A DNA stretch of 64,000 nt from positions 121,468 to 185,467 of the forward strand of contig JAGVGF010000001.1 of NCBI GenBank assembly GCA_020057295.1. Direction: 5' to 3'. The notes below the pieces were generated by a model. That model did not search any database and was not told the DNA's origin. It saw only the letters and a list, made by a program, of their open reading frames with translations. The DNA comes from an archaeon. Its GTDB lineage: Archaea > Nanobdellota > Nanobdellia > Woesearchaeales > UBA9642. Positions 14,231 through 62,880 of the stretch are shown in pieces (the first letter of the stretch is position 1; every line of letters begins with the position of its first letter). Position numbers and translations under genes: made by a program.

Positions 14231-14275
14231 ATCAACATTCAGTATTCACGTATAATACTTTAAGAGGTGTGTATC

Positions 14276-14740: not shown

Positions 14741-14751
14741 AGGTGTTTATT

Positions 14752-29556: not shown

Positions 29557-29612
29557 ACCCGCGGTCTCCCGGTCCGAAGCCGGGCGTTTTATCCAAACTA
29601 AACTAAGTGCCC
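29538..29612 (-). tRNA. tRNA-Arg (anticodon UCG)
   Basis: Reverse complement: GGGCACT TA GTTT AGTTTGGATA AAAC G CCCGG CTTCGGA CCGGG AGACC GCGGG TTCAAAT CCTGC AGTGCTC A. It forms a full cloverleaf. Confidence 0.85.
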
Positions 29613-32973: not shown

Positions 32974-33480
32974 TTATTTGTTAGATTTTCCAGTTACTGA
33001 TATAATTACCTGTTCTGCTAATCTGCTTTGATCATTCATATAGGATAATTTTATTTCTCCTTTAACAACTTGAACATTAGCAAATGCTGAACAATTAGTT
33101 AATCTTATAGTAATACCAGAACCATCGGATATTGTTTGCGTGGCACTAGTACAAGTGACATCTCCTTGAGGACAAATATATCTTCCAGTACAATTGTTTA
33201 ATGGCGCTGTTAGTGTCATGTTAGCTGTATCATTGTATACATTTACAGGATATCCTAATCCATTAACTAAAGAAAACATTGCACTATTTGAAGTAAATAT
33301 TGGTTTACCAGGACATGCAAAACCGCTAGATGCTAAACACGTGTCTGGCGTAAATTTACTCGGGTTTAAAATACCGAAGTATGATAATGCTCCGATTGCA
33401 GCAAGAACAACTAAGATTGCCCAACCATAAGTCATCATAAACTCTAAAGCAGCTTGACCTTTAAAACTATTTTTCCTCAT
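32974..33480 (-). CDS. Type IV pilin-like protein, class III signal peptide (KG/QAALEF type), paralog A
   Basis: MRKNSFKG/QAALEFMMTYGWAILVVLAAIGALSYFG has Gln at +1 and Glu at +5 after the Gly. This resembles EppA-type archaeal pilins (Class_III signal). Confidence 0.65.
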   Translation of the reverse strand: MRKNSFKGQAALEFMMTYGWAILVVLAAIGALSYFGILNPSKFTPDTCLASSGFACPGKPIFTSNSAMFSLVNGLGYPVNVYNDTANMTLTAPLNNCTGRYICPQGDVTCTSATQTISDGSGITIRLTNCSAFANVQVVKGEIKLSYMNDQSRLAEQVIISVTGKSNK

Positions 33481-33508
33481 CAAAATTCACCTCAAATAAT
33501 ATTATAAT

Positions 33509-34036
33509 TTATTTTGCTTTACCTGTTACTGAAACAATTAAAGTTTCTACTAAACCACTTTGTGTATTAGTATAATTAAATAATACTTCTCCCTTAACAA
33601 CTTGAACCTTACTAAAATCACAAGCAGTTAAGTATGTAGTAATACCAGAACCATCATTAACAGCTTTAGTAGTAACAGTACTATTAGTACAACTAGCACC
33701 AGATGTAAAACCTTGATCACACATAATAGCATTACAATTAGTTAAAGTTTTATAAGCAATTTTTGTAGTATCTAAAGTTATTTGATAACCAAGACCATTA
33801 ACGACAGAAAAAGCTATAGTACCAGAGTTTTGAACAGTTGCTGAACCACCCATTATTGGTTTACCTGGACATGCAAAACCAGCACTTGCCAAACAAGTAT
33901 CTGGAGTAAATCTTGAAGGATTTAAAACACCGAAGTATGATAATGCTCCGATTGCAGCAAGAACAACTAAGATTGCCCAACCATAAGTCATCATAAACTC
34001 TAAAGCAGCTTGGCCTTTACTAGATTTATACATCAT
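33509..34036 (-). CDS. Type IV pilin-like protein, class III signal peptide (KG/QAALEF type), paralog B
   Basis: The N-terminus is MMYKSSKG/QAALEFMMTYGWAILVVLAAIGALSYFG. An 84-nt stretch is identical to paralog A. A TATA-like atttataaat lies at 34081-34090. Confidence 0.65.
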   Translation of the reverse strand: MMYKSSKGQAALEFMMTYGWAILVVLAAIGALSYFGVLNPSRFTPDTCLASAGFACPGKPIMGGSATVQNSGTIAFSVVNGLGYQITLDTTKIAYKTLTNCNAIMCDQGFTSGASCTNSTVTTKAVNDGSGITTYLTACDFSKVQVVKGEVLFNYTNTQSGLVETLIVSVTGKAK

Positions 34037-34161
34037 AAACAACACCTCTGAAAGTTAATAGAACACATCTTGGTAAAGACATTTATAAATATTTCGATTT
34101 TACGCATAAAAAACTCTATTAACGATTATCACTAAAAAATTAGAAAATTTGTTCTTTAAAA

Positions 34162-40646: not shown

Positions 40647-43166
40647 TTAACTTGAAACTTTCTTTACGGACAAGTCTGACAAGCTAGCAGTTACTACTTC
40701 TACTTCCATTCCGCTTAATGCGTACTTTGGTGTATCATAGTTTGCTAATACTCTACATGCGCCCTGTGTATCCTTACCAGTTGCACCTGCGACTAATAAA
40801 GCATTCTGTGTTGAGAATAACTTTATTGTTGCCTTTCCTTCTGTCCATCCTTCATAACACTTTTCTGGGTTGCCCATTAATGTTGCTGCTACTGTGTTTG
40901 CACATGGTCCACCGATTACTATGTAAGGTGTTGTTCCGCCTAGCTTTGCATCAGTATCTAATATTGCTAATCCAACACTAATTGGATTTAAGCTTACTGC
41001 TCCTGATGTGCTTGTGGATGTTGCCTTTGCTGCTGTTGGTGATATAAACACATTTGCGTACATTTGGTCTTGTGGGTACATTACCTTTACTTCTACATCG
41101 TTGTTACCTGATGGATTGTACTTTGTTACGTAAGTTCCAAAGAAGTCCATGTAGGAGTTAGTGTATGTATCTTTCATTGACTGAATAGCTGAGTTTGTTC
41201 CTGTGAACAATACTGCGCTAGGTCCGTCAACACCAGTTCCTGCTACGTATGTTGAACCAACAAATACTAAGTTTTCAACGTTGCTGTTATCCTTTTCTTC
41301 CCTGATTAATACACCAGGTAATGAAGGTGCGCTTCCGCCAACTGTTGCAATTCCAATAGAGTTTATTACTCCAGCAGTTGTGTTAGTATATGTGTAGTTT
41401 ACTCCACCTATAGTTACTGAGTATCCTGCTCCAGCTGCTACAGTAGTTAATGTTGCTGCTGCTCCTGATGGGAACAATACACTAGTTGCATTTGGTATAC
41501 TTAGTCCTGTCAAGTTAGCTAAGAAAGTGAATTTTTCACCACTTGCTAACTCAATCAATGGGAATACTACAGTCTGGCTGTCAGAGTATGTTACACTAAC
41601 GTTGTTGCTTGCAGTTGTTGAGTTGCTCATTAACTGTACATTATATGCTTTACCATCTACTGTTAATGATCTATTATCACCAACATTTACAAATCCACCT
41701 TTTACAGTGTCGTAGTATGTTCCTGGTTTTACTGCATCTTCAAATCTTGCATAACCGTTTGTTGCATCTAATGTTACATCAGATACTTTAACCAAGTGTG
41801 TATACTTCATATCTGTATTAGTGTTTGGTGACAAATACAAGTAGTCATCCTGATTTGCAGCTGATCCTTCAACAGGCAATATGTCTCTATTCTGATCATA
41901 TTGTAATGCTCCATTGTAAGAGAAGTAAACATCTTGTTTTTCACTTGTACTTACTGGCACATTTGCATATACTCTAGTTGAACCTGCTGGTCTTACTATT
42001 ACAGTATCTGCTCCTGCTAATGCACTATTTGCTGTGTCAATGTATTTTATTGCAAATGTTCCGAATACTGGATCATTGAATGAGCCACCTTCAGCTAAGT
42101 ACTTCTTACTTGAATCTGATGAAGTAACATATACTTGTAGTGATGTTAATCCATGTATCAAGTTAGGAGTTGCTACTGAACTGCTCATTTGAACCAAAGT
42201 TCCTTGAACTGAATCTTCGGAATTTCCTGTTGCTACCTTTTTACCATGCTCTAAGACTAATTTCTCAGCGCCTAGTTGTAATGTTGCAAATCCGTCAATG
42301 CCGTTGTTCCATGAAGATACTGACTTAGCGTAGATTTTTAATCCACCAATAGTCTTTGATGTTCCTTCTGTTACTGAGTCTGTCTCTCCATTTACAGATA
42401 ATGTTACCTTACTTGCTGTTGATGCGAATCCGATAACCTTTACTACAAACTCTTTACCATTGATTGTCTTTGTTGCTTCATCCTTTGGTGTTAAGGATAC
42501 TTGTTCAGATGAACCGAACAATACTAACTTATTACCAGTTGATTCAGATGAGAATGTATATTCTTTACCGAATAATACTATCTTCTGACCAATGATTGAT
42601 GCCTTAGTTGTATTTACTGCTTTGTTGAAGTCAACTTTTGCCTGGAATAAATAGTCTGAAGTTGTTGCAGTTGTTGAAGCCATATCAAATGCTAAGAATG
42701 AATCAGCACTTGACTGTGAATGTTGACTGAATGCTAGATTTTGTGTCTTAGCAAATACAACTGACTGTGAGTAGTCGTATACAGTTCCTTCATTGTCTTC
42801 AAATTGCTTATCTGACATCAAGTTTAGATTGTCTTTTGTTACTGAATCTACTGAGAATGCTTCTCCGTAATAGATTCTGTTACCGCTAGTGTCTAATCTG
42901 TAACCGCCTTCAACTGAAGTTGAGGAGCCGCTTGTTGATACAACTGTTGTTGATGCTCTCTGTAAACTTGCTGCTACATCTAATGCACCTACAGTATCTA
43001 TTGCGTATGCTTTCTCTCCGATTACAATCTTACCTACAAATACTCCATCCTTTACGAATGGTGCTGGGTAGTTACTTAAATCTGTTGCTAGTGCCATTGC
43101 TGCAGTACCTGCTAGCATTGTTGCACCCATACCCAAAGCAACTATCTTCTTTATTGTCTTATTCAT
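40647..43166 (-). CDS. S-layer protein
   Basis: After the signal peptide comes LSNYPAPFVKDGVFVGKIVIGEKAYAIDTVGALDVAASL (S-layer N-terminal domain type). The C-terminus has YIVIGGPCANTVAATLMG. The composition is T/S/A/G/V-rich and visibly different from neighbouring genes, consistent with a highly expressed structural protein. Confidence 0.75.
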   Translation of the reverse strand: MNKTIKKIVALGMGATMLAGTAAMALATDLSNYPAPFVKDGVFVGKIVIGEKAYAIDTVGALDVAASLQRASTTVVSTSGSSTSVEGGYRLDTSGNRIYYGEAFSVDSVTKDNLNLMSDKQFEDNEGTVYDYSQSVVFAKTQNLAFSQHSQSSADSFLAFDMASTTATTSDYLFQAKVDFNKAVNTTKASIIGQKIVLFGKEYTFSSESTGNKLVLFGSSEQVSLTPKDEATKTINGKEFVVKVIGFASTASKVTLSVNGETDSVTEGTSKTIGGLKIYAKSVSSWNNGIDGFATLQLGAEKLVLEHGKKVATGNSEDSVQGTLVQMSSSVATPNLIHGLTSLQVYVTSSDSSKKYLAEGGSFNDPVFGTFAIKYIDTANSALAGADTVIVRPAGSTRVYANVPVSTSEKQDVYFSYNGALQYDQNRDILPVEGSAANQDDYLYLSPNTNTDMKYTHLVKVSDVTLDATNGYARFEDAVKPGTYYDTVKGGFVNVGDNRSLTVDGKAYNVQLMSNSTTASNNVSVTYSDSQTVVFPLIELASGEKFTFLANLTGLSIPNATSVLFPSGAAATLTTVAAGAGYSVTIGGVNYTYTNTTAGVINSIGIATVGGSAPSLPGVLIREEKDNSNVENLVFVGSTYVAGTGVDGPSAVLFTGTNSAIQSMKDTYTNSYMDFFGTYVTKYNPSGNNDVEVKVMYPQDQMYANVFISPTAAKATSTSTSGAVSLNPISVGLAILDTDAKLGGTTPYIVIGGPCANTVAATLMGNPEKCYEGWTEGKATIKLFSTQNALLVAGATGKDTQGACRVLANYDTPKYALSGMEVEVVTASLSDLSVKKVSS

Positions 43167-45721: not shown

Positions 45722-48700
45722 TTAATTATGTTCATGTATTGGTGGAGAGTTATCTTTCTTACTCTTCTTAGCCACAATGAATATAATTATTCCGAATATT
45801 ACAATAAATATCACAACAGTCCAAACACCATTATATGGATTCTTAGGTGCAGTCGGAGTGCTTGTATTGTTTCCTGTACTATTATTTGTTGCATTGCCCG
45901 TTGTTACCGTACCATTAGTTCCTGAATTGTTTGTTGTAACATTACCTGTTAAATTACCAGTATTATTAGCCACAACTACTGGAGCTTTTGTTGATATTGC
46001 AAATAAACTTAGTCCAGGACTGTCTGCTAGATAATAAACATAGTTTGAATCGTCGTTGGTTATTGTTGTAATTAATTCAGTCCATTTAGAAGCATCGTAT
46101 CTTACTAAGTATATTTCTTCTTTAGTTTTTCCGTTACTTGTTAACCAATTCTTCTCAATCTTAAACTTTATCTTTGCATTATCTATCTTACTATTATCTA
46201 ATGCGTCGTGATCAATTTTTAGATATTTGTAAACCTTTCCTGTGTAAGTTGACGTTGGACTGGTTGTTGCTGTAACTACAAATTTAACATTAGTAGCAGA
46301 TGCAATAGTTGTTAAGAATATTTCACTTAATGGAATACTAGTACTATCAATTGTTATTACTTTAGATCCTGGAGCTATCAAATCATACGTTACAGTTTTT
46401 GAAGGATCAGGAGTAGCACCACCGCCACCACCGCCACCACCAGAAGAACCGCCAGAACCACCAGTACTTCCAGAAATACTGAAAGATACTGAACTATATC
46501 CTATATTACCAGACATATCAGTACATCTATAATAGTAAGTATATGATGAACCAGCATCTACACTCTCGCCTGTCTTGGTGTGTTGTGTTATATTATCATT
46601 CGAAAAAATTATATTTGTTCCGGACGTAAAATTATATAATCTATTAAATTCACAAGTTGTATTTTCAAATGTTGTTACTGTTAAAGTTACAGTACTTACG
46701 CTGCCTTGCGCTCCTGATGGTCCTGAGCTACTTAGTACTGGAACCACCGTATCATTGACTGTAAATTGTTTAAGTGATGAATTAATATTGTTGAAACTAT
46801 CATTGACGTATAATGTCAAATTATATGTTCCGTTAGCTAGATATAAATACTGTATACTCATATTAGCACTACTAGTACAATTACTAATAGGTACATTATT
46901 TTTAGTTAGTGTTCCACTTAATGAATACCAACAACTGTTCAAAGTTCCACTATTATCCGAAGCGTTAAAATCAAGTTGTAGAACTGAACCATACAAACTA
47001 TCATATCTTGTATTATTAGCAGGATTTGTAATATTTATCGTTGGATAAACATTATCTAAAATAATAGTTCTATTTATTTGATATAAATTTCCTGCAGTGT
47101 CTGTGATGTTGACAGTGATGTTATATAATATTTGTGCAGTTGCATTCAAACCATAGATTGTGTAGTTCCATACTGTTGTTGTAGAATTATAATTCTGCAT
47201 TGCAGTACCATTTAGGATATTGTTTACTGTTAAAGTAACATTTGCTACACCATAAGTATCATTAGCCGTACCTATAAATGTGTAATTGTTTAAGTTTGGA
47301 TTAATATATGTTGTATTTGCTGATGGTGTTGTTATTGTTCCTGTTGGTAATGCATCGTATGTTATATTAGATCCGTACTTGATTGCAGTTCTACCAGCTA
47401 AATCATAAGTAATTACTGTTATATTATATACTCCTTCAGCAAGTGTTGGAGATAAAGTAATACTTCCATTACTTGAACTTGTTGTAGTATTAACAACTGA
47501 ACCAGTAGAGTTAGTTACATTAATCTGTGTATAATTAACATTTGCTTCGACGACAGTAACATTAATTACAAAAGTACTGTTAACTGTGTTGTTTGTTGGA
47601 TTAACTATGGTTACTACAGGCGCAATATTATCTACAGTAAATTGTACTGTTGTATTTGCAGTATTTCCAGGAGAATTACCACCATAATCATATGCAATTA
47701 CAGTTAGATTATATACTCCATCAACTTTATTACTTAAATTGAAATAACATTGGAATAATTCAGATCCTTCTGTAACATTAGTACAATTAGCAGTATTACT
47801 AATATTGGTATAATTAGCTATCATTGCACCATTAACATAGAAGAATGCTTGACTAATTTGAGTATCAGTACCATTTAATGAAACATTAATTATAGTGTTG
47901 TTGTTAGTCGTATATATCCCACTCAGAGGAGCATTAACAGTCAACGTTGGAACGATATTATCAGTCATGTTATATCCTGAAAATCCGTTTACAACAAATG
48001 TTAAATTACCTTCTCTTAAACCTTGAACCCATCCTGTTGTTGTATTTACTCCTGCAGCTCCGTTATCAGCAACGATTGGTGGCTGTGATGTAAAAGGCAA
48101 ATGATATAACACTATAGTAGTTCGAGTATTGAATGATGCTAACATTGTTGAGTTAAAATATATCCTTGAACTACCAAAACTATTCGGTGCACTAATGTTA
48201 ACTTGAATTGCGCTTGGTAAATTACTCAAATTACCTATAGTATTGTTATCTGTAAGATTGAGATTTGTAAAATTTAGCATTGCAACCGTAGTATAAGTTC
48301 TCATCCATGCACTTATGTTAAGAGTAGGATTAGTACAACTTAAATTAATCATTGGCTCTAAAGTTAAATTAACAGCATTGAAATTAGATATTGTAGTAAA
48401 ATTAATAGTATTAGATCCCCACTGTAAACATCCGCCAGTAGGAGGAGTAGTCATATTATATAGTATAACAGTAACAGTAGTTACACTTGGTGCACCATAA
48501 GATTCGTTAGCAGTTATTACAATAGGTCCGCCAACAAAATTTGATAATGCGGCCTCATCAGCAACGTTACATGAAGCATTCCAATTATTAGGAGTGGCTG
48601 ATGAATTAGATAAATTGATTAAAGAAGTTCCTGCACCACTACAGTTTACACCAAGAGCAGAAAAATCTGCTGTAACTGTTACATTATTACCTGGAACTGC

Positions 48701-48874
48701 ATTAGCACCACTGACGGTAACTAGTAAATTTACTATATTATTACTAGTATAATTAGAATACAGATTATCCGATTCATTTACACCGGCAGAACTGATAGTA
48801 ATAGCTTGTACAGCTACTACCACAGTTAATAAGATTATTATGAATGCTAATATGCTGAATATTTTTTTATTCAT
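45722..48874 (-). CDS. Giant sequon-rich surface protein with a poly-Gly hinge, PGF-pre-PGF-like domain and C-terminal TM anchor
   Basis: The signal peptide is MNKKIFSILAFIIILLTVVVAVQA, followed by dozens of N-x-S/T sequons and Ig-like repeat character. The hinge is SGSTGGSGGSSGGGGGGGGATPDP. A YKYLKIDHD...SKWTEL...ADSPGLSLFAIS domain and an N/T-rich stalk follow. The C-terminus has a TM helix plus KKSKKD. Confidence 0.7.
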   Translation of the reverse strand: MNKKIFSILAFIIILLTVVVAVQAITISSAGVNESDNLYSNYTSNNIVNLLVTVSGANAVPGNNVTVTADFSALGVNCSGAGTSLINLSNSSATPNNWNASCNVADEAALSNFVGGPIVITANESYGAPSVTTVTVILYNMTTPPTGGCLQWGSNTINFTTISNFNAVNLTLEPMINLSCTNPTLNISAWMRTYTTVAMLNFTNLNLTDNNTIGNLSNLPSAIQVNISAPNSFGSSRIYFNSTMLASFNTRTTIVLYHLPFTSQPPIVADNGAAGVNTTTGWVQGLREGNLTFVVNGFSGYNMTDNIVPTLTVNAPLSGIYTTNNNTIINVSLNGTDTQISQAFFYVNGAMIANYTNISNTANCTNVTEGSELFQCYFNLSNKVDGVYNLTVIAYDYGGNSPGNTANTTVQFTVDNIAPVVTIVNPTNNTVNSTFVINVTVVEANVNYTQINVTNSTGSVVNTTTSSSNGSITLSPTLAEGVYNITVITYDLAGRTAIKYGSNITYDALPTGTITTPSANTTYINPNLNNYTFIGTANDTYGVANVTLTVNNILNGTAMQNYNSTTTVWNYTIYGLNATAQILYNITVNITDTAGNLYQINRTIILDNVYPTINITNPANNTRYDSLYGSVLQLDFNASDNSGTLNSCWYSLSGTLTKNNVPISNCTSSANMSIQYLYLANGTYNLTLYVNDSFNNINSSLKQFTVNDTVVPVLSSSGPSGAQGSVSTVTLTVTTFENTTCEFNRLYNFTSGTNIIFSNDNITQHTKTGESVDAGSSYTYYYRCTDMSGNIGYSSVSFSISGSTGGSGGSSGGGGGGGGATPDPSKTVTYDLIAPGSKVITIDSTSIPLSEIFLTTIASATNVKFVVTATTSPTSTYTGKVYKYLKIDHDALDNSKIDNAKIKFKIEKNWLTSNGKTKEEIYLVRYDASKWTELITTITNDDSNYVYYLADSPGLSLFAISTKAPVVVANNTGNLTGNVTTNNSGTNGTVTTGNATNNSTGNNTSTPTAPKNPYNGVWTVVIFIVIFGIIIFIVAKKSKKDNSPPIHEHN

Positions 48875-49037: not shown

Positions 49038-49439
49038 ATGCGTTTCACAAGAATAACTATTATTAGAATTAAAAAGCCAGAGCAAGATCATATTAATGAA
49101 GAACTAAGATTCTTAGGAGAATCATTAGGACTTTTTAATGAGAGGGATAAAGACAAGAGTTGTTTTAGAATATTTATCGCGTTATTAAAATCATTAAAGA
49201 CAAATCATAGATTAACGAGCGATGAAATTGCAGATAGAACAAATCTTACACGAGGAACAGTCGTACATCATTTAAATCGTTTAATGGAATCTGGAATTGT
49301 TGTAAATCAAAAAGGATACTATATTCTCGCTGTTGATAATATGGAAGAACTTGTCGAGTTAGTTAAAAATAATTTAACAAAAACATTCGATAATCTAAAA
49401 CCTATAGCAAGAAATATTGATAAAAAGTTGGAATTATAA
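49038..49439 (+). CDS. Winged-helix (ArsR-like) transcriptional regulator
   Basis: LTSDEIADRTNLTRGTVVHHLNRLMESGIVV is an HTH plus recognition helix. The gene is convergent with the operon end, 3 nt away. Confidence 0.6.
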   Translation: MRFTRITIIRIKKPEQDHINEELRFLGESLGLFNERDKDKSCFRIFIALLKSLKTNHRLTSDEIADRTNLTRGTVVHHLNRLMESGIVVNQKGYYILAVDNMEELVELVKNNLTKTFDNLKPIARNIDKKLEL

Positions 49440-49442
49440 TTC

Positions 49443-50753
49443 TCAGAATATATATCCAGCAAATATTTTATACGCTTTAGGATTCGCAAGTGTTGTTCTC
49501 ATTCCAGCGTACAGATGTGTTTCCTTAACTCCAAGACTTAATGTATGTTTATTTTTATAAGCTGTATTATTATTAAATATTCCTTGATCATTATTAGTAT
49601 ATATTATAAATATCGGAACAGTTTTTATTAATCGAGATAAATCAACACCTAAAGTAATTTCTGGTTTCTCGCCGCTAAATTTTATTCTAAACTTTATAGG
49701 ATTACCGACAAGAGGATCATCGGCGTAGAACATATTCATTAAATTACTCATCGATTGTGGTGTTTTAACATAGCTTAACGAGTCAGTAATATTTTTTTCT
49801 AATTCATAATTATCAATTCTTACAAAGTCATCTGTGGATATTGTAAGATCTAACATTTTAGATTTACGATGTAATTGTTGCATATTTTGCATATATGTTA
49901 ATCCAAAATTTATTCCAACACCAACATTTTGACGCTGCCGCAATCTTAATGCAATATCCCATGACGACATCTTAGTATTATCATAACCAAAACCGTAAGC
50001 GTTTATACTGGTTCGTCCATTCATTAACAAAATTTTTGGAATATTAAGATTAATAACATAACCTCTAGCATGTTCAGATATCTCGTCTGCTTTTATAGTA
50101 TTATTTAACATTTTTAGTTTAAGATAATTGGTTAATTTTAGAGAATATATCTCCGTAGTCCAATTTATATCAATATTTTGCACAGATACTGATTCTGAAC
50201 CTTGATATCTAATTAATGTTCGAACATCAGTATTATCTTTAATATTATGTAATACATATTCTAAACCAAAGTCATTAAAACTTGCATAAACTTTTTTTGA
50301 TGACAAATTTTCATTTCTTAATATTCTGGTATTAGCATATAAGGTGTCAGGACCCATAATGGTTGTAGACCCCTTCGTATCCTCTTTATTATTATACGCG
50401 TAATCAATAGTTGAACCAAATAGTATCTTATGTTTTTCTAAATACCCTGTTAATAAACTAATCACTCTAGAATCTATACTACCACCATATCTATGATTTG
50501 TAAGTCCAGTTTTTGCACCATAAACATTTGTAGAATCAGTTGCTTTTAATGCTAAATATCCTTGAATATTAACTAGTTCAGATTCTTTAAACATTCCAAA
50601 ATTATTCTCGACATTTAGAACAACAGGCTTCGTCTTCAACCCTATTTCTGTATCACTTAATCGAAAATCATTATTTTGAGCATTAATATTACCAGTAAAC
50701 AGTTGATATAGTAATAGTATTCCTGCGGTAGTGTTTCGTATTTTTTTGAACAT
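49443..50753 (-). CDS. Outer-membrane-type beta-barrel-like protein (PorP/SprF- or porin-like candidate)
   Basis: The signal peptide ends INA/QNN. Alternating hydrophobic beta-strand patterns run throughout (VGVGINFGLTY, SINAYGFGYDN, LSLGVKETHLYAGM). The C-terminus AYKIFAGYIF has hydrophobic residues at positions 1, 3, 5, 7 and 9 from a terminal Phe. This is the classical OMP beta-signal. Confidence 0.5.
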   Translation of the reverse strand: MFKKIRNTTAGILLLYQLFTGNINAQNNDFRLSDTEIGLKTKPVVLNVENNFGMFKESELVNIQGYLALKATDSTNVYGAKTGLTNHRYGGSIDSRVISLLTGYLEKHKILFGSTIDYAYNNKEDTKGSTTIMGPDTLYANTRILRNENLSSKKVYASFNDFGLEYVLHNIKDNTDVRTLIRYQGSESVSVQNIDINWTTEIYSLKLTNYLKLKMLNNTIKADEISEHARGYVINLNIPKILLMNGRTSINAYGFGYDNTKMSSWDIALRLRQRQNVGVGINFGLTYMQNMQQLHRKSKMLDLTISTDDFVRIDNYELEKNITDSLSYVKTPQSMSNLMNMFYADDPLVGNPIKFRIKFSGEKPEITLGVDLSRLIKTVPIFIIYTNNDQGIFNNNTAYKNKHTLSLGVKETHLYAGMRTTLANPKAYKIFAGYIF

Positions 50754-50774: not shown

Positions 50775-51500
50775 TTATTTAACTAATGTCATCTTTTTTG
50801 TTTTAACACCATCAAATGTTTCTAGTTTATAGAAATAAGTTCCGCTAGCATATTTGCTTGCATCAAAACTTACAATTCTTAATTGTCCTGCTTTGCAATA
50901 TTCATCCACTAAAGTTTTTAATTCTTTACCAGACATATCATAAACTCTTAATCTAACTTGTCCGTCGTGTTCTGGCTTGAATGATATATTTGTTGACGGA
51001 TTAAATGGATTGGGATAATTTTGTAATAGACCATATCCTTGTGGAATAGTTTCATCAATACTATTCACAGATGTCAATCCTTGTAATATACTGTGTAATT
51101 TTTGTGCATTCTGCTCTGCAGTAACTGATGTATCATAGATAGTACTATTACCAGTTAGAAAAGTAATTATTGGAGAATATTTATTAGCACTATCTTTACT
51201 AGTAAATGTTATAGAGAATGGTTTTACCATACTATTATTAGGATTAGCAGCATCTGTTTTACTAATGTACAATTCTGGAACTATTCTAACTGACAAACCA
51301 GTGTTAGGATTGAAAGGGTCTAATCTTACCGTATCTTTTACAGCAGTACCATGAACAACATATCCTAAATTATCTCTTAAATAAGTTCCCATTTTAGTAA
51401 TATTTGATTGCGCATTAGAAATTGCAGGAGTAGTGAATGCTAATACTGTTGATAAAAATATAGTTCCTAAAATATTTTCTAAAGATTTCTTTATAATCAT
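50775..51500 (-). CDS. Secreted protein with a T9SS-type C-terminal sorting domain (Por_Secre_tail / type A CTD)
   Basis: The signal peptide ends SNA/QSN. The C-terminal roughly 85 aa read LLQNYPNPFNPSTNISFKPEHDGQVRLRVYDMSGKELKTLVDEYCKAGQLRIVSFDASKYASGTYFYKLETFDGVKTKKMTLVK. This matches the T9SS CTD consensus almost motif for motif. Confidence 0.75.
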   Translation of the reverse strand: MIIKKSLENILGTIFLSTVLAFTTPAISNAQSNITKMGTYLRDNLGYVVHGTAVKDTVRLDPFNPNTGLSVRIVPELYISKTDAANPNNSMVKPFSITFTSKDSANKYSPIITFLTGNSTIYDTSVTAEQNAQKLHSILQGLTSVNSIDETIPQGYGLLQNYPNPFNPSTNISFKPEHDGQVRLRVYDMSGKELKTLVDEYCKAGQLRIVSFDASKYASGTYFYKLETFDGVKTKKMTLVK

Positions 51501-51504: not shown

Positions 51505-53331
51505 TTACTCCATTACATAATAATCTTTTTTCTTTGATGGATCATTGCCACCATATTCATAATGTGTCAATACTTTCTTCTTAGTATTTTTTACATCGTT
51601 CTTATAATTATTAGCCTTTATTTTAGGAGTAGATTTAGAAACAGATTTGTATTTCACATCAACATTTTCTGTGACTTTCTTATCTTTCTTTACAGGAACA
51701 TCATCTACGATTATATCACGGATATCGTCACGAATTGCCTGACCATTTCCACCGCCTAAAATTTTTACTGATGCAAAATTTATAGTATTATCATCATAAT
51801 TGGCTTCCATAACCTTTTTATCATAATTTACTGTAACACTTGGAACATATACTCCGGGAGTAATATATTTTATTCCAGTCCATACTATTGTCTCTTGATG
51901 AGCAGGAATGACTGCCGTAACAGAATTTATACTTGCACCATCTCCTTTATCTATCTTCCAAGATACTACGTTATCAATATCTGCATTATTCACTATCTTA
52001 AATTGTACAATCACTAAATCATTAGGTTTGACTGTATCATTGTATATATAGGAACTATATGGATAAAGATTATCGTTTGTTATTGCTTTTACAGTAATAT
52101 TAAATTCTTGAATTTTAGAGAATCCCCTATTTTGTGGATCTCCACTGAAGAATGTGTGTTTAACTTCTAATTTTACAGTATTTGTTCCTTGCTGCATTGC
52201 TGTAGGTGTCCATGTAATTGTGCGTGTCTTTTGATTTATAGTCATTCCACTTGGCCCTTTCAAAAGATAATATTCAAAGAAATTAGTATCTTGTGTTATG
52301 TTAATATGTAATGGTTCCACAGTCAGAGTATAAGTATATGCTTTATTTACTTCAGCATCTAAAGATGGTGTAGATGTAATGTGTGGACTCCATCCTATAG
52401 TATTGTTAACATAAAAATCTTGAGTTGTAATAACTACATTATTTTGTACTCCGCTTTTCTTGTATGCAATAATAGCTATCATCTTATAAGCATCTGTTGG
52501 TATCCATGTAGGAACTTCTGCGTCCATTACAGATGCAGGATTTTCTATACAAATAAACTCACTACCGCTAAGATCAAAATTTTGATTAGTATCTAATCGT
52601 GTACCAAATGATTTTCCAGTACATACTTTATTTACACCATTTTGTGAAGTTATACGTATCCATCCACCATTAGGTTTAAGTGTTAGGATCATTTGAATAT
52701 CTTTTGGTAAAAGACTGCCCCACCATGTAACCCTATAACTAGTGTTTGATTCAACAGTCTTTATTAACGTATTAGGAGCATCTAATTCTATATTTTCATT
52801 GACAATATTATTTGCTTCTATCTGAAAGTTTCTCAAATCACCAGGAACATATTTAGTACTTTTATCAAAACTACTCATTATTACTTCAATATTTCCATCT
52901 TGTTCATAATAACTATACCATTTATCTGGTGAAACAGGAGATAATTGAACATTCTGATTAGAATTACCAACAACAAATAAGAACCCTGTTTTAACGTCAA
53001 AACCAGTTTTATATATTGTCCACTGATATAACTTTTGTGATTCAAGATTAAATGATACTGAGCCAGTGTTATCAGTAACACCACGTGTGCTAAAACTTGC
53101 ATCATCAATACCTTGAATAATAACAGCAGCTCTATTAATATTGTTACTGCTTGTATCCGTTACCTTAAAAGAGACTTGCGACACAGTTACAACTTTATTA
53201 TCATAAACTATCCTATCAATTTGTCTTGCGTCATCAATATATTGTCTGGCACAAACAAGAGAGAGAACTGTAACCATTATTAAAGAGTAAATGAAAAAAA
53301 TTGTTATTCTTGCAAGTATTTTTGATTTCAT
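51505..53331 (-). CDS. Anchored surface protein with Ig-like and CARDB-like repeats and a Lys-rich tail
   Basis: The N-terminal anchor or signal is MKSKILARITIFFIYSLIMVTVLSLVCA. PSGMTINQKTRTITWTPTAMQQGTNTVKLEV resembles a putative Ig domain. A CARDB-like segment ends EANYDDNT. The start is ambiguous: 53331, 53352 or 53370. Confidence 0.5.
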   Translation of the reverse strand: MKSKILARITIFFIYSLIMVTVLSLVCARQYIDDARQIDRIVYDNKVVTVSQVSFKVTDTSSNNINRAAVIIQGIDDASFSTRGVTDNTGSVSFNLESQKLYQWTIYKTGFDVKTGFLFVVGNSNQNVQLSPVSPDKWYSYYEQDGNIEVIMSSFDKSTKYVPGDLRNFQIEANNIVNENIELDAPNTLIKTVESNTSYRVTWWGSLLPKDIQMILTLKPNGGWIRITSQNGVNKVCTGKSFGTRLDTNQNFDLSGSEFICIENPASVMDAEVPTWIPTDAYKMIAIIAYKKSGVQNNVVITTQDFYVNNTIGWSPHITSTPSLDAEVNKAYTYTLTVEPLHINITQDTNFFEYYLLKGPSGMTINQKTRTITWTPTAMQQGTNTVKLEVKHTFFSGDPQNRGFSKIQEFNITVKAITNDNLYPYSSYIYNDTVKPNDLVIVQFKIVNNADIDNVVSWKIDKGDGASINSVTAVIPAHQETIVWTGIKYITPGVYVPSVTVNYDKKVMEANYDDNTINFASVKILGGGNGQAIRDDIRDIIVDDVPVKKDKKVTENVDVKYKSVSKSTPKIKANNYKNDVKNTKKKVLTHYEYGGNDPSKKKDYYVME

Positions 53332-53341
53332 TTTAAAACCT

Positions 53342-56041
53342 TTATTTTCCATACTTTTTGTATAGTACAAATGCTAATATTCCTAGAATAATTATTCCTA
53401 GTATTAACCACATTGCTGTACCAAGACTTAGTATAGATTCTACATCAGATGTTACTTGTCCTGTTATTCCAGGAATTCCATCAGAATTATCTTTATTAGT
53501 ACTTGATGGAACATTAGTTTGTGTATTATTTGATGGTGTTGGAACATATTTTTCCAATTTATCAGCTACCTTAGTTGTATTAGTAACATTGGAAGGTGTT
53601 GTTTCAATTGTAGTATTTTTTATAACAGTAGTTGTAGTATTCTTTGGAGTATAAACTCCGCCACCGCCTCCACCGCCACAACTATTAGTACATGAACATC
53701 CAGAACATGGAATTACAGTTTGTGTATAAGCTACAAAATCTGTAAAGTGTTTAGTCCATATAGCAAGATCTGAACCAACTGTTATTACACATTCACTATT
53801 TAAGCTCAAAGCATCACCTGCAGATTGCGTATCTGCACTACATGTATTTACAATCTTTGTAAAAGTAGTTCCTCTCTGGAACCCTGCAGATTTACCACTC
53901 ATTCCTGGAAGAACTAAACGTACTGCTTTATCAAATGTTAAATTTTCACTATCAGTACCAACTTTAATAACTAGATTTGTTGCAGCAGTATATCCAGAAT
54001 CTGGTGTAGCATTTGCAGCAGCAATTAACAAAAGTTTTGGTAATGCGAATGAACCATCCCATGTGCTACCACCACTAATAGTGATATTTGCAGGGAATGC
54101 AATATTAATTATTCCTGAAGTAGTATTAACAGTTGCATCAATTGTTCCAACAACATTAACAGTAGTAATGTTAGTTACATTATTAACTATACTTAATGCG
54201 CCCAAGTCTAATGTTACTTCTGTTACATTTTGTGAAACTGTAATTGTTGAATTAATATTTTTTGTTGTATTATCCATTACTATTTGAGTATATGTTTGTG
54301 TTACAGTATTATTTGCAGCATAAGTTTTTATTTCTTCAGTTCTAAAAGTTGTAAAATGCGATGTGTTAAAAATTAAAGTTCCAGTAACATTATTATAACT
54401 TATGCTGTTATTATTTATACCTGTCAAATTAATATTAATAATTTCAACATTATTATCATCAAATATACGTATGTTTGGTGTGCTAGTGTATGGTAAACCA
54501 TACATCGTCAATGTTGCGTTTGCATTTTTTATGATACTTGCTGTTGTTGCATCAAGTCCAATAACACCTTTAGTCATGTTAAGTTTATTACCAAGATTCT
54601 GCATTAAAGCAATAGTTGTAGCACTAGTCATATCTAAAGGATCATTAAAACTTATTTGTCCATAACCTGTCTTTTCAAAATATAATCCTACACAATTTGT
54701 TGGATTATCGCCGCATGTATTAATATTACTTGCGATACCATTATTGTTTAGTATTGTATGAAGTGCATTGAATTCTACAGTCATTGTTGGAACTATATCT
54801 AATATGACAGTCATATTTTTTAATGCAGTATTTCCATACTTATCTGCTGCTTTAACTGTTACAGTGTATGTTCCTGATATTAAAGGCACTTGTGATGTGT
54901 TAACACTTAAATTGCCTTGAGGTAAATCATATGTTACATCACCAGCACTATTAGTTAATGTAATAGCTTTAGAAGTTATTTCTCCTATACTAAATACTCC
55001 TGTAGAATTAACGTATGATGCTACCGTTTCAAAGAAATCTGAAGGATTTAACGTTTGAACATTATCGTTAATTATGTCTGTAATATTTTTTATAGTATTA
55101 TTACTGAATGTAGTATATCCATTGTCAAGATAAACAGTATAAAAAGTACCGTTCTTGTAGAAATCCATAGTAGTATCGTACACACTATTTAAACTTGCAG
55201 CATCTATAGCTTGATTAAAACATGTGTAATCTTTATTAACATTAATAGAGTTTACAGAACATATAACATTGCTAGTTCCATTATTCTCTTTAATATTCTT
55301 GAAACTAAAATAGCCGCCAACAATATTAGCTGCCTGACCTCCGACAACATTAACATAGTTGTATGTAGGATATTTATTACCTTCCTTGAATGAAATATTT
55401 ACTGTTAGTTGATCTAGAACATTAGACTGAAAATCAATTGATCCACTTAGGCCATTAATATTATATGCCTGTGCTAATTTATCTAGATTTTGATACTTTA
55501 TAGTATCATGAGTAAAATCTATATTACCTTGTATAGATGAATTTTTTTGATTAATTGTCAATACAACATTATTGAATCCATCAACAAATTCATCTGCATC
55601 ACTCCATACAGTCACTTGAACAGATTGATTATTGACTGCTAACGCAGTATTATTGAATGTAAACGTTCTAAGGCCAGAAATATTATTATTATTCCAATTA
55701 TATATTAATGTAGTAACATTGTTACTATCAGTAGCATTAGTAAAATATGTTATAACATCACCCAAAATATTATCAGTTAATGTTATATTACTAGGATTAA
55801 TACCAGTATAATATATATAGATACGATTTGTACCACCAACTACAGGATTATGTCCTGCTTGTGCCGTTACACCAGTAAAGTTCATTGAACCTTGAACAGT
55901 TAAATCTGAATTATGACTATTAAAACTCATTGTTACTAATGTTATAGTACTAGTATCATTAACAGCATTAATAGCAGTAGCCACTAAAAGTATAGACAAG
56001 AATGTACAAAAAATTAAAAAAGATGATTTCATATTATTCAT
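53342..56041 (-). CDS. Giant sequon-rich surface protein with a poly-Gly hinge and C-terminal TM anchor
   Basis: The start is taken at MNNMKSSFLIFCTFLSILLVATAINA. Dozens of N-x-S/T sequons are present, with domain ends SHFTTFRT and KHFTDFVAY. The hinge is CGGGGGGGVYTP, followed by an N/T-rich stalk. The C-terminus has the TM helix WLILGIIILGILAFVLY plus KKYGK. Confidence 0.65.
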   Translation of the reverse strand: MNNMKSSFLIFCTFLSILLVATAINAVNDTSTITLVTMSFNSHNSDLTVQGSMNFTGVTAQAGHNPVVGGTNRIYIYYTGINPSNITLTDNILGDVITYFTNATDSNNVTTLIYNWNNNNISGLRTFTFNNTALAVNNQSVQVTVWSDADEFVDGFNNVVLTINQKNSSIQGNIDFTHDTIKYQNLDKLAQAYNINGLSGSIDFQSNVLDQLTVNISFKEGNKYPTYNYVNVVGGQAANIVGGYFSFKNIKENNGTSNVICSVNSINVNKDYTCFNQAIDAASLNSVYDTTMDFYKNGTFYTVYLDNGYTTFSNNTIKNITDIINDNVQTLNPSDFFETVASYVNSTGVFSIGEITSKAITLTNSAGDVTYDLPQGNLSVNTSQVPLISGTYTVTVKAADKYGNTALKNMTVILDIVPTMTVEFNALHTILNNNGIASNINTCGDNPTNCVGLYFEKTGYGQISFNDPLDMTSATTIALMQNLGNKLNMTKGVIGLDATTASIIKNANATLTMYGLPYTSTPNIRIFDDNNVEIININLTGINNNSISYNNVTGTLIFNTSHFTTFRTEEIKTYAANNTVTQTYTQIVMDNTTKNINSTITVSQNVTEVTLDLGALSIVNNVTNITTVNVVGTIDATVNTTSGIINIAFPANITISGGSTWDGSFALPKLLLIAAANATPDSGYTAATNLVIKVGTDSENLTFDKAVRLVLPGMSGKSAGFQRGTTFTKIVNTCSADTQSAGDALSLNSECVITVGSDLAIWTKHFTDFVAYTQTVIPCSGCSCTNSCGGGGGGGVYTPKNTTTTVIKNTTIETTPSNVTNTTKVADKLEKYVPTPSNNTQTNVPSSTNKDNSDGIPGITGQVTSDVESILSLGTAMWLILGIIILGILAFVLYKKYGK

Positions 56042-56260
56042 TTTACGCCCCCAAGCTGTAAATACAAAATAAAGTGTATGATACGTAACAGTACGCATCA
56101 AGTAAATAAAGACATTAAATGTATCCGTTCACAACAACAACGGAATTACCCCAACAGTTAAATTTATGCTTAAAAGGTATAATCAAATGGCATTTATAAA
56201 CTTTTCTATAGAAATTTACTACTATTTAGAGAATAATTAAAAATTAAAAAAATTTAGAAC

Positions 56261-61975: not shown

Positions 61976-62368
61976 ATGGGTATAATGGATTTTTTAAAAA
62001 AGAAAGAGGAAATACCGTTTGATCAGAGTAGTTCTTTTAACTCTAATGATATGAATTCCAACATGATAACACCAGATACTACAGGAATACCAAGCAGCAA
62101 CATCGATACATCATCTTATCACACTGATCAGAGCTTAAATTCTTCATCAAGTATGTCTGGTATGAATAGCGGAAATTTTAATCAATCATTTAGTCCTTCT
62201 CAATCACAAGCTTCTCCACCTCAAGATATTGGTAGAGATTTACAAGTAATATCTTTAAAGCTTGACGCGATAAAGGCAGAACTTGATGCAATGAATCAGC
62301 GTATGAAAAATCTAGAAGGTATTGCTGAACGTGAGCAAACGCATGCGCAACAAAAAAAATGGTATTAA
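61976..62368 (+). CDS. Hypothetical S/N-rich protein with a C-terminal coiled coil
   Basis: The ATG follows a GAGGTG site. The middle is low complexity. The C-terminus is LQVISLKLDAIKAELDAMNQRMKNLEG. Confidence 0.35.
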   Translation: MGIMDFLKKKEEIPFDQSSSFNSNDMNSNMITPDTTGIPSSNIDTSSYHTDQSLNSSSSMSGMNSGNFNQSFSPSQSQASPPQDIGRDLQVISLKLDAIKAELDAMNQRMKNLEGIAEREQTHAQQKKWY

Positions 62369-62880
62369 AAAAAAATTATTCTAAAAATAAAGATAATTTG
62401 AGAATGAATAATATTGCATCACGTAATGTTCGTAAGAAAGAATTTAAGTCGAAAAATGTTAAAATTAAAGGATATATTACAATAATATTTTTTCTTATAC
62501 TAATATTTATTGATAGATTAACAAAAATTTGGGCTATGAATTTGAAAGATTCTATAGATTATGGAATTATAGCATTTACATATGTTACTAATACAGGCGC
62601 AGGATTTAGCATTTTACAAAATATGAATACTTTACTGATAGGAATTTCTGTATTAGTATTAGGATTGCTTCTATATTTTCATGATCACATTAACAATACA
62701 TCCGTATTATTGATAAGTTCTGGTATTGTTGGTAATGTTGTTGATAGAATATTTTACGGCAAAGTTATTGATTTTATAGACTTCAAATTTTGGCCAATAT
62801 TTAATATTTCTGACTCACTAATATTTGTCGGAGTATTAATCTGGATAGTTATCATATTTAGAGATAATAAGAAAAAATAG
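62359..62880 (+). CDS. lspA: Lipoprotein signal peptidase (signal peptidase II, LspA) homolog
   Basis: It has four TM segments with TNTGAGFSIL and GNVVDRIFYGKVIDFIDFKFWPIFNISDS. Compare the bacterial NxGAAF and GNxxDR..G.VVDF...FN.AD motifs, which carry the catalytic Asp residues. Confidence 0.8.
   Translation: MVLKKNYSKNKDNLRMNNIASRNVRKKEFKSKNVKIKGYITIIFFLILIFIDRLTKIWAMNLKDSIDYGIIAFTYVTNTGAGFSILQNMNTLLIGISVLVLGLLLYFHDHINNTSVLLISSGIVGNVVDRIFYGKVIDFIDFKFWPIFNISDSLIFVGVLIWIVIIFRDNKKK

What the first reader, a model, noticed from the sequence alone, without database searches (positions are those of the whole stretch)
49443..50753. Candidate outer-membrane beta-barrel with a canonical C-terminal beta-signal in an archaeon
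Seen:
- The 436-aa protein has a cleavable-looking signal peptide and no long hydrophobic helices.
- Dyad-repeat beta-strand patterns are pervasive.
- The C-terminus is AYKIFAGYIF, with hydrophobic residues at positions 1, 3, 5, 7 and 9 counted from a terminal Phe.

Established: this is the BamA-recognised beta-signal of bacterial outer-membrane proteins. PorP/SprF-like barrels are commonly encoded next to T9SS cargo.

Inference: archaea are generally monoderm and lack BAM. A genuine barrel here would need an unusual target membrane, possibly a host or partner membrane, or a second envelope layer.
Basis: partly seen in the sequence, partly recalled or inferred. Interest (0 to 1): 0.7.

Follow-up and report, generated by a model that had tools for sequence, protein, structure and literature searches.

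The report
Bacteroidota-like secretion gene pair in archaeon
An AT-rich archaeon keeps, under purifying selection, a bacterial-style gene pair: a small protein with a type IX secretion sorting domain, followed by an orphan beta-rich protein that looks like an outer-membrane barrel, although the barrel fold could not be shown.

Summary
The 436-aa ORF at 49443-50753(-) is a real, selected gene (dN/dS 0.11). It lies on a real archaeal chromosome, with 16S/23S rRNA, proteasome, exosome and RpoK genes alongside. It has a Sec-type signal peptide, no transmembrane helix, and the C-terminus AYKIFAGYIF. The gene directly upstream encodes a type-A T9SS C-terminal sorting domain that passes the Pfam and NCBIfam cutoffs.

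The order [large surface protein][He_PIG protein][CTD protein][this protein]/HTH recurs in five other contigs from three lineages. In two lineages the cassette follows the exosome superoperon. Assembly chimera and recent transfer are therefore excluded.

Both bacterial-like proteins carry Gln right after the predicted signal-peptidase site, which is the Bacteroidetes Q-rule.

The barrel claim is unproven:
- Two AlphaFold runs failed (pLDDT 27 and 30).
- No PorP/SprF, PorV, FadL or generic OMP model matches.
- Period-2 amphipathicity does not separate barrels from soluble beta proteins.
- One of the three lineages lacks the terminal Phe.
- An exhaustive search of 1.84 billion representatives finds only three clusters.

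Best reading (about 0.45): a domesticated Bacteroidota cargo plus OMP-like partner pair working at the archaeal surface.

Side finding: the same contig encodes bacterial-type Lgt and LspA.

The parts
49443..50753 (-). 436-aa orphan secreted beta-rich protein, the candidate OMP-like barrel. It has no Cys and no Pfam, NCBIfam or PDB sequence match.
   Evidence: ORF. No family hits. Homologs P0001 (96%), P0002 (53%) and P0003 (36%) are the only ones found. dN/dS against L002 is 0.108. Codon usage matches the host.
50679..50753 (-). Predicted Sec signal peptide (residues 1-25, MFKKIRNTTAGILLLYQLFTGNINA), with Gln at +1.
   Evidence: Read directly from the sequence. The +1 Gln is conserved in P0001, P0002 and P0003. 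The Bacteroidetes Q-rule is described in PMC5837995.
49446..49475 (-). C-terminal decapeptide AYKIFAGYIF, an OMP-like terminal strand or beta-signal-like motif.
   Evidence: Conserved as FLGYRF in P0003 but VGYVCPL in P0002.
50775..51500 (-). 241-aa secreted protein. It has a signal peptide ending SNA|QSN, an orphan N-domain of about 125 aa, and a T9SS type-A C-terminal sorting domain. It lies 21 nt upstream of the 436-aa gene.
   Evidence: Pfam Por_Secre_tail 39.6 bits (cutoff 27) and TIGR04183 41.5 bits (cutoff 23). tblastn matches Rhodothermus and Chondrinema CTDs at 37-40% identity, E down to 1e-12. dN/dS 0.079.
50778..51017 (-). The CTD itself (residues 162-241). It carries the YPNPFNP, V.V.D..G and SG.YFY.L motifs and the C-terminal K-M-x-x-x-K.
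   Evidence: Alignment with the L001 and L003 CTDs and a Chondrinema CTD. There is only one CTD ORF per locus.
51505..53370 (-). 621-aa protein with an N-terminal hydrophobic anchor or signal and a He_PIG Ig-like domain. It is the second gene of the conserved operon.
   Evidence: Pfam He_PIG, E 2.3e-8. Orthologs occupy the same position in L001 and L002.
53342..56101 (-). 919-aa surface protein rich in N-X-S/T sequons, with a C-terminal TM anchor. It is the first gene of the operon.
   Evidence: Sequence. An ortholog of 764 aa occupies the same position in L001.
49038..49439 (+). 133-aa winged-helix (ArsR/HTH_24) regulator, convergent with the 436-aa gene. It is about 90% identical across all three lineages.
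   Evidence: Pfam HTH_24 and HTH_5. Present next to the homolog in L001, L002, L003 and L015. Sequences. dN = 0 against L002.

Best explanation
The 241-aa and 436-aa genes form a two-gene module of Bacteroidota-type ancestry. It has been domesticated inside an archaeal four-gene cell-surface operon and inherited vertically in a small archaeal clade.

Gene 1 encodes a small Sec-exported protein ending in a genuine type-A T9SS sorting domain. Gene 2, the finding, encodes a Sec-exported, helix-free, beta-rich protein of about 410 mature residues with an OMP-like last strand.

By analogy with bacterial CTD/shuttle pairs (PorV with type-A CTDs, PorP/SprF with adjacent type-B cargo), I infer that the 436-aa protein folds into an OMP-like beta-barrel or beta-meander. 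I further infer that it is the dedicated binding and anchoring partner that holds the CTD protein at the cell envelope, together with the two archaeal-type surface proteins of the operon.

Shown: gene reality, archaeal host, synteny, purifying selection, CTD identity, signal peptides with +1 Gln, and the C-terminal motif. Inferred: the barrel fold, the physical interaction with the CTD, and the place of insertion.
For: - Archaeal chromosome: rRNA, and exosome, proteasome and RpoK genes directly upstream.
- Same cassette and same chromosomal position in L001. Same gene order in L002, L003 and L015.
- Host-like GC3 and RSCU.
- dN/dS is 0.108 for this gene and 0.079 for the CTD gene.
- The CTD passes curated cutoffs and aligns with Bacteroidota and Rhodothermota CTDs.
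- There is exactly one CTD gene per locus, always immediately upstream.
- The cargo-then-OM-partner gene order matches four Bacteroidota loci and the literature (PMC12618676, PMC9143113).
- Both proteins have +1 Gln in every lineage examined, while four other secreted proteins of the window do not. This is a Bacteroidetes-specific trait (PMC5837995).
- The protein has a signal peptide, no TM helix and a terminal ...GY[IR]F in 2 of 3 lineages.
- The 4-sequence AlphaFold model, though low-confidence, consists of 17 mostly long strands in tight hairpins. Its top Foldseek hits are nearly all outer-membrane barrels, and the first is a chain of the T9SS translocon complex, 8gl6_F.
Against: - There is no confident structure: pLDDT 27 and 30, pTM 0.14 and 0.23.
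- The Foldseek hits are non-significant (E >= 0.02, TM < 0.2). The other model gives unrelated hits.
- No HMM or profile similarity to PorV, PorP/SprF, FadL, OMP_b-brl or any PDB chain was found.
- Amphipathic periodicity does not discriminate barrels from soluble beta proteins and is absent in P0003.
- The terminal aromatic residue is lost in the P0002 lineage.
- No BamA/Omp85 or other T9SS component occurs among the ORFs of the window.
- No membrane is known that could receive a barrel in an S-layer-bearing archaeon. An S_layer_C protein lies at 40647-43166.
Confidence: 0.45

Rival explanations
1. The protein is a soluble, secreted or S-layer-associated beta-rich surface protein, not a membrane barrel. 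The C-terminal AYKIFAGYIF is simply its last amphipathic strand. The operon encodes an adhesin or surface complex in which the CTD serves as an ordinary Ig-like domain.
For: - Period-2 amphipathicity is equally high in soluble beta proteins.
- The strict alternation count equals the shuffle value.
- The terminal Phe is not conserved in P0002.
- No OMP family or fold match was found.
- The organism encodes an S-layer protein and archaeal-type anchored surface proteins in the same operon.
- No BAM is visible in the window.
Against: - It does not explain why a Bacteroidetes-type +1 Gln signal peptide and a T9SS CTD neighbour co-occur in every lineage.
- No internal repeats typical of propellers or solenoids were detected.
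- The strands predicted in the better model are long (9-12 residues) hairpins rather than Ig-like short strands.
- Its Foldseek neighbours are OM barrels. Both of these last points rest on weak evidence.
Confidence: 0.35
2. The protein is a genuine OMP-type barrel destined for a second membrane. That membrane is either an as yet unseen outer membrane of this archaeon or the outer membrane of a diderm partner or host cell, where the CTD protein and barrel would mimic Bacteroidota T9SS components.
For: - It shares all the evidence for an OMP-like barrel listed above.
- The contig also carries bacterial-type Lgt and LspA that pass equivalog cutoffs, so this lineage has imported several bacterial envelope functions.
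- The divergent 16S rRNA (two mismatches to the recalled ARCH915 target) and the many pilin-like genes are compatible with a symbiotic, DPANN-like lifestyle. This last point is inference.
Against: - No Omp85/BamA, Sov/SprA, PorU or other T9SS gene is present in 64 kb, or in the 17 kb of the 21-kb L001 contig that was read.
- The organism's identity and lifestyle are unknown.
- No route is known by which an archaeal secreted protein would reach a partner's periplasm.
- The fold is unproven.
Confidence: 0.12
3. The finding is an artefact. Either bacterial DNA was mis-assembled into an archaeal contig, or the pair is a decaying relic of a recent transfer with no function.
For: Both proteins have purely bacterial-type features, namely the T9SS CTD and the Q-rule signal peptide.
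Against: - Five other contigs (JGI, two ENA samples, one NCBI MAG) share the gene order, and two lineages share the flanking archaeal exosome operon.
- GC3 and RSCU are indistinguishable from housekeeping genes.
- The ORFs are intact at 36-53% protein divergence, and dN/dS is about 0.1.
Confidence: 0.03

Closest known systems
PorV (LptO), the outer-membrane beta-barrel shuttle for type-A CTD cargo of the Bacteroidota T9SS (PDB 6H3I, 8GL6; PMC10994853, PMC12618676)
   Same: - The partner protein carries a type-A CTD, and in bacteria PorV is the receptor for these.
- Size is similar: about 410 mature residues here, against the 345-367-residue T9SS-complex chains that Foldseek matched (their identity as PorV was not verified).
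- The protein has a signal peptide with +1 Gln and an aromatic C-terminal strand.
- The top, non-significant Foldseek hit of the better model is a chain of the T9SS translocon complex.
- The archaeal CTDs keep an invariant Lys near the C-terminus. One conserved Lys is the conserved PorV contact in bacteria, but which Lys corresponds was not established.
   Different: - No sequence or HMM similarity to the PorV models in Pfam or NCBIfam was found.
- The fold is unverified.
- Bacterial porV is a single-copy core gene not linked to individual cargo genes, whereas here the gene is dedicated to one adjacent cargo.
- The host is an archaeon with no visible SprA/Sov, PorU or outer membrane.
PorP/SprF-like shuttle or anchor barrels encoded next to type-B CTD cargo genes (PMC9143113, PMC12618676)
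   Same: The gene order is identical: the cargo gene is immediately followed by its cognate OM protein gene, as in four Bacteroidota plasmid loci examined here. The concept is also the same, one dedicated partner per cargo.
   Different: - The neighbouring CTD is type A (TIGR04183), not type B.
- The 436-aa protein is about 130 residues longer than PorP/SprF (289-312 aa).
- It lacks the N-terminal QQDPxFSQY..N...NPAYAG signature and the PRYF end.
- hhalign probability against a PorP alignment is 0.1%.
Generic BAM-dependent bacterial outer-membrane beta-barrel proteins with a C-terminal beta-signal (e.g. OmpF ...VGIVYQF, Bacteroidota TonB-dependent receptor ...ASFAFRF)
   Same: - The protein has a signal peptide and no TM helix.
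- It is Cys-free.
- Its beta periodicity falls in the range of real OMPs.
- It ends in Phe with alternating hydrophobic residues and Tyr at -3.
   Different: - No Omp85 was seen.
- The motif is not conserved in one lineage.
- No family-level homology was found.
- The barrel is not demonstrated.

Membership tests
PorP/SprF family (PF11751 / TIGR03519) | Significant match to the family HMM or profile | tested here: not met
   No Pfam or NCBIfam hit at E <= 1-10 for any of the four members. hhalign of the family alignment against four annotated PorP/SprF proteins gave probability 0.1%.
PorP/SprF family (PF11751 / TIGR03519) | N-terminal mature motif QQDPxFSQY..N...NPAYAG and a length of about 290-320 aa | tested here: not met
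   The motif retrieved annotated PorP/SprF genes from plasmids and is visible in their sequences. The mature N-terminus here is QNNDFRLSDTEIGLK..., and the protein is 436 aa.
PorP/SprF family (PF11751 / TIGR03519) | Encoded next to a type-B CTD cargo gene | tested here: not met
   The adjacent cargo has a type-A CTD (TIGR04183, 41.5 bits). No type-B model hit was found.
PorV / LptO (T9SS type-A CTD shuttle) | Match to PorV family models | tested here: not met
   Nothing was reported in full Pfam-A and NCBIfam scans of all members. I could not obtain a PorV sequence for a profile-profile test.
PorV / LptO (T9SS type-A CTD shuttle) | FadL-like outer-membrane beta-barrel fold | tested here: inconclusive
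   The AlphaFold models have pLDDT 27 and 30. Foldseek on model 2 puts a T9SS complex chain (8gl6_F) first, but at E 0.02 and TM 0.14. Model 1 gives noise.
PorV / LptO (T9SS type-A CTD shuttle) | Binds type-A CTDs | not testable with these tools
   The only support is genetic linkage to a single type-A CTD gene in all loci.
Bacterial outer-membrane beta-barrel protein (BAM substrate) | Cleavable Sec signal peptide and absence of TM helices | tested here: met
   Sequence and hydropathy. Conserved in homologs.
Bacterial outer-membrane beta-barrel protein (BAM substrate) | C-terminal beta-signal (terminal aromatic residue, alternating hydrophobic residues) | tested here: inconclusive
   Present in the window protein and P0001 (AGYIF) and in P0003 (LGYRF). 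Absent in P0002 (VGYVCPL), as confirmed in two assemblies.
Bacterial outer-membrane beta-barrel protein (BAM substrate) | Closed transmembrane beta-barrel with a hydrophobic belt | tested here: inconclusive
   Structure prediction failed. Periodicity statistics do not discriminate barrels from soluble beta proteins.
Bacterial outer-membrane beta-barrel protein (BAM substrate) | Omp85/BamA insertase and an outer membrane in the same organism | not testable with these tools
   None was found among the ORFs of 110 aa or more in the 64-kb window that were scanned, nor in L001. The rest of the genome is not available.
T9SS type-A C-terminal sorting domain (neighbouring gene 50775-51500) | Match above curated cutoffs to PF18962 / TIGR04183 at the extreme C-terminus, preceded by a Sec signal peptide | tested here: met
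   39.6 bits (cutoff 27) and 41.5 bits (cutoff 23), covering residues 162-237 of 241. It aligns with Bacteroidota CTDs.

The most novel reading that the evidence does not exclude
A small archaeal clade makes a true bacterial-type outer-membrane beta-barrel and a T9SS-style CTD cargo. It places them either in a second envelope membrane of its own or in the outer membrane of a diderm (Bacteroidota-like) partner. This would be the first OMP-type barrel working for an archaeon. It would sit in a lineage that has also imported the bacterial lipoprotein enzymes Lgt and LspA.
Probability: 0.12. Interest if true: 0.9.

Novelty: new variant of a known kind. Interest (0 to 1): 0.6.

Why it matters
T9SS sorting domains and OMP-type barrels are regarded as features of diderm bacteria, and of Bacteroidota in the case of T9SS. 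No beta-barrel outer-membrane protein is known from Archaea.

A cargo plus candidate-barrel pair that has been kept under purifying selection in an archaeal clade raises two possibilities. The CTD and partner interaction may be a self-sufficient surface-display module that works without the rest of the T9SS or an outer membrane. Alternatively, these archaea may have an unrecognised envelope layer or an intimate diderm partner. Either outcome would inform how secretion modules are repurposed across domains.

The same contig contradicts the current statement that archaea lack Lgt and Lsp homologs (PMC12462473). This makes the lineage a good target for studying bacterial-type envelope biogenesis in an archaeon.

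Tried and rejected
- **Structure prediction.** AlphaFold2 with 3 and with 4 sequences was unusable both times. Foldseek on both models gave nothing significant.
- **Enlarging the family.** I tried a k-mer search with the single sequence and with the profile, an exhaustive hmmsearch of 1.84 billion representatives, and scans of genome, metagenome and viral contigs. I also searched with the N-domain of the neighbouring protein. These yielded only three clusters plus near-identical copies.
- **Family and structure matches.** I searched Pfam, NCBIfam and PDB by sequence with single sequences and with the profile. Only noise came back (DUF3598_N at E 0.06-0.1, SOBIR1, HMG-CoA reductase, MAP3K12).
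- **Profile comparisons.** hhalign against PorP/SprF, FadL, OmpF, OmpC, OmpA, LamB, TBDR, SusC and the neighbouring proteins found nothing. A self-comparison found no internal repeats.
- **Home-made barrel statistics.** The beta moment, strict alternation count and autocorrelation were calibrated on E. coli and Chondrinema OMPs and on soluble controls. They do not separate the two classes, so I dropped them as evidence.
- **PorV.** I could not obtain a PorV sequence for a profile-profile test.
- **Taxonomy.** Recalled FISH-probe sequences gave no assignment. The 'Methanosarcinales' label on the P0003 MAG sits on a 2.4-kb contig and is not trustworthy. A literature search for the sample identifiers found nothing.
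- **Other checks.** The sigma-70 promoter scan is irrelevant to archaea and was not above shuffles. A lipobox search in the window found none.
Full report
**What is there**

The window carries an ORF of 436 aa at 49443-50753 on the minus strand. Its N-terminus, MFKKIRNTTAGILLLYQLFTGNINA|QNN, has the n-, h- and c-regions of a Sec signal peptide. The most hydrophobic 19-residue stretch of the whole protein scores only 1.53 on the Kyte-Doolittle scale and contains charged residues. There is therefore no transmembrane helix.

The protein has no cysteine and ends in AYKIFAGYIF. Given the amino-acid composition of the window's ORFs, a terminal Phe with hydrophobic residues at -3, -5, -7 and -9 is expected in about 0.12% of proteins. 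Among 64 ORFs of 100 aa or more in the window, only this gene and one spurious ORF overlapping a tRNA come close.

The claim of pervasive dyad repeats is only partly borne out:
- Strict five-of-five alternation is no more frequent than in shuffles: 4 observed against 4.8 +/- 2.9.
- The beta hydrophobic moment is raised in the window protein (z 2.3-2.9) but less so in its homologs (z about 1.5 and about 0).
- I calibrated the same statistics on E. coli OmpF, OmpA, OmpC, FadL and LamB, a Bacteroidota TonB-dependent receptor and SusC, and on soluble secreted proteins. Soluble beta-rich proteins score as high as real barrels.
- The statistic therefore shows that the protein is beta-rich and nothing more.

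**Is it really archaeal, and is it a real gene?**

The same contig holds a complete archaeal 23S rRNA (2534 bits), tRNA-Ala and 16S rRNA (1392 bits). It also holds aIF2-alpha, GINS, L44e, S8e, an Sm protein, Rpp14, NusG/Spt5 and L11.

Immediately upstream of the operon that contains the finding lies the archaeal exosome superoperon: proteasome-alpha, SBDS, Rrp4, Rrp41, Rrp42 and RpoK.

Relatives of the 436-aa protein exist, but they are extraordinarily few:
- P0001 is 96% identical (ENA contig, locus L002).
- P0002 is 53% identical and 524 aa long (JGI contig L001, and a second ENA assembly L015 that differs by one residue).
- P0003 is 36% identical and 432 aa long (an NCBI MAG contig, L003/L004).
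- There is also a 97% identical fragment (L005).
- An exhaustive HMM search of 1.84 billion representative proteins found nothing else.

In every locus the gene order is the same: [large surface protein][He_PIG protein][CTD protein][this protein], with a convergent 133-aa HTH regulator. In L001 the cassette again follows proteasome-SBDS-Rrp4-Rrp41-Rrp42-RpoK.

GC3 and relative synonymous codon usage of the two bacterial-like genes match those of housekeeping genes. Between the window and L002, dN/dS is 0.108 for this gene, 0.079 for its upstream neighbour and 0.127 for the He_PIG gene.

Assembly chimerism, contamination, recent transfer and pseudogene decay are thus excluded. This is a functional, vertically inherited archaeal gene.

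**The neighbour**

The 241-aa protein, encoded 21 nt upstream (50775-51500, minus strand), has its own signal peptide, an orphan N-domain of about 125 residues and a C-terminal domain. That domain passes the curated cutoffs of Pfam Por_Secre_tail (39.6 against 27 bits) and NCBIfam TIGR04183, the type-A T9SS sorting domain (41.5 against 23 bits).

It matches CTDs on Rhodothermus, Chondrinema, Salinibacter and Hymenobacter plasmids at 27-40% identity, with E down to 1e-12. It aligns without difficulty to a Chondrinema CTD, including the YPNPFN and SG.YFY.L motifs and the C-terminal K-M/L-x-x-x-K. The orthologs in L001 and L003 keep these motifs.

Only one CTD-bearing ORF occurs per locus. The N-domain has no relatives outside this clade.

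**A Bacteroidetes fingerprint**

The predicted signal-peptidase sites of both proteins are followed by Gln in every lineage available:
- INA|QNN, GA|QNN and GFG|QDS for the 436-aa family.
- SNA|QSN and AKA|QSN for the CTD protein.

Four other secreted proteins of the window have T, T, I and V at that position. These are the S-layer protein, the 519-aa protein, and the 1050-aa and 919-aa surface proteins.

Exposure of an N-terminal Gln by signal peptidase I is described as specific to Bacteroidetes (PMC5837995). The four Bacteroidota PorP/SprF proteins I retrieved show it too. Together with the CTD, this points to a Bacteroidota-type origin for the pair, followed by complete amelioration of codon usage.

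**Is it a barrel?**

This is the point I could not settle.

AlphaFold2 with the only alignments obtainable (3 and 4 sequences) gave mean pLDDT of 26.6 and 30.0. The second model consists of 17 strands, mostly 8-12 residues long and joined by tight turns, plus four short helices. Foldseek ranks almost exclusively outer-membrane barrels at the top for this model. A chain of the T9SS translocon complex (8gl6_F) comes first and 6h3i_F comes lower. However, E is 0.02 or worse and TM-scores are below 0.2. This is a hint at best.

Sequence and profile comparisons found nothing:
- No Pfam or NCBIfam family matched any of the four members, even at E <= 10.
- No PDB chain matched.
- hhalign found no similarity to PorP/SprF, FadL, porins, OmpA, TBDR or SusC.
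- No internal repeats were detected.

The C-terminal motif is conserved as ...FLGYRF in P0003. It is replaced by ...AVGYVCPL in P0002, and two independent assemblies agree on that ending. For context, the Chondrinema SusC control also ends in Leu.

**Comparison with known systems**

In Bacteroidota, type-A CTDs are all recognised by the outer-membrane barrel PorV. Type-B CTD cargo is often genetically linked to a cognate PorP/SprF-like barrel that shuttles or anchors it (PMC12618676; PMC9143113). PorV grips the CTD with its extracellular loops (PMC10994853).

I retrieved four annotated PorP/SprF genes from Bacteroidota plasmids. Each lies immediately downstream of its CTD cargo gene, which is the gene order seen here.

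The archaeal protein fails every PorP/SprF membership test. It has no HMM or profile match, it lacks the QQDPxFSQY..NPAYAG signature, and it is about 130 residues longer. Its neighbour's CTD is type A.

Functionally the nearer analogue is PorV, which has a type-A partner and a similar size. No sequence relationship to PorV is detectable, and the fold is unverified.

**Most likely explanation**

I commit, at about 0.45, to this reading: a Bacteroidota-derived cargo plus OMP-like partner pair, domesticated within an archaeal cell-surface operon. In this reading the 436-aa protein is the dedicated binding and anchoring partner of the adjacent CTD protein.

The main rival (about 0.35) is that it is a soluble or S-layer-associated beta-rich protein whose last strand merely resembles a beta-signal.

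The exciting sub-case (about 0.12) is a true barrel inserted in a second membrane of the archaeon or of a diderm partner. It cannot be excluded or supported with 64 kb. No Omp85 or other T9SS gene is among the window's ORFs or in L001, and the organism encodes an S-layer protein.

**Seen in passing**

- The contig encodes bacterial-type prolipoprotein diacylglyceryl transferase: Pfam LGT E 1e-64, and TIGR00544 at 192 bits against a cutoff of 119.
- It also encodes signal peptidase II: Peptidase_A8 E 9e-28, and TIGR00077 at 76.5 bits against a cutoff of 74.
- The 16S rRNA is divergent, with two mismatches to the ARCH915 target as I recall it.
- The lineage could not be named.

Noticed in passing
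window 18076-18882 (-) and 62359-62880 (+): The contig encodes bacterial-type Lgt (Pfam LGT E 1e-64; TIGR00544 at 192.3 bits, cutoff 118.9) and signal peptidase II LspA (Peptidase_A8 E 8.6e-28; TIGR00077 at 76.5 bits, cutoff 73.95). Both have host-like codon usage. [quoted passage not shown] No lipobox ORF was found in the window by a strict regex.
   Followed up: partly
window 1437-2336 (+): A 299-aa protein has a Peptidase_C13 (legumain-like) domain, E 5e-10. From memory, C13 belongs to the same peptidase clan (CD) as the C25-type T9SS sortase PorU. It lies 47 kb from the cassette, and no link was tested.
   Followed up: no
window 49038-49439 (+); L001 11939-12340; L003 1703-2104: The 133-aa winged-helix regulator convergent with the finding is about 90% identical across lineages whose neighbouring 436-aa proteins are only 36-53% identical. 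It shows dN = 0 against L002. It is a very strongly constrained regulator, always next to the cassette.
   Followed up: partly
window 6706-8168 (-): The 16S rRNA is divergent. It has two mismatches to the ARCH915 probe target as recalled from memory, an unusual 5' end and 50.6% GC. None of the recalled order-level methanogen, ANME or SM1 probes match. The lineage is unresolved, possibly DPANN-like. The only organism label among relatives ('uncultured Methanosarcinales archaeon') sits on a 2.4-kb MAG contig.
   Followed up: partly
window 14267-14740, 14743-15243, 15534-16112 (+); 32974-33483, 33509-34045 (-): There are five small ORFs with class-III (type IV pilin-like) signal peptides, such as MNKKGSMELSVNSIVILVIAIV... 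and ...KGQAALEFMMTYGWAILVV..., arranged in two tandem clusters.
   Followed up: no
window 28891-29556 (+), next to tRNA-Arg at 29537-29612 (-): A LAGLIDADG homing-endonuclease ORF (E 1e-11) overlaps the end of a tRNA-Arg gene on the opposite strand.
   Followed up: no
L001 10001-11575 (P0002), alignment columns about 236-340 of A2: The 524-aa homolog carries three insertions of 15-28 residues relative to the window protein. One is a tandem duplication (LDNTIKTE LDNTIKTE). The insertions fall in consecutive predicted inter-strand loops, a pattern that neither supports nor contradicts a barrel.
   Followed up: partly
window 40647-43166 (-) and 45722-48874 (-): An 839-aa protein has an S_layer_C domain. 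A 1050-aa surface protein has a PGF-pre-PGF domain (TIGR04213, E 6e-22) plus Big_13 and Big_7 repeats and a C-terminal TM anchor. The organism therefore has a conventional archaeal surface-protein repertoire alongside the bacterial-like pair.
   Followed up: no
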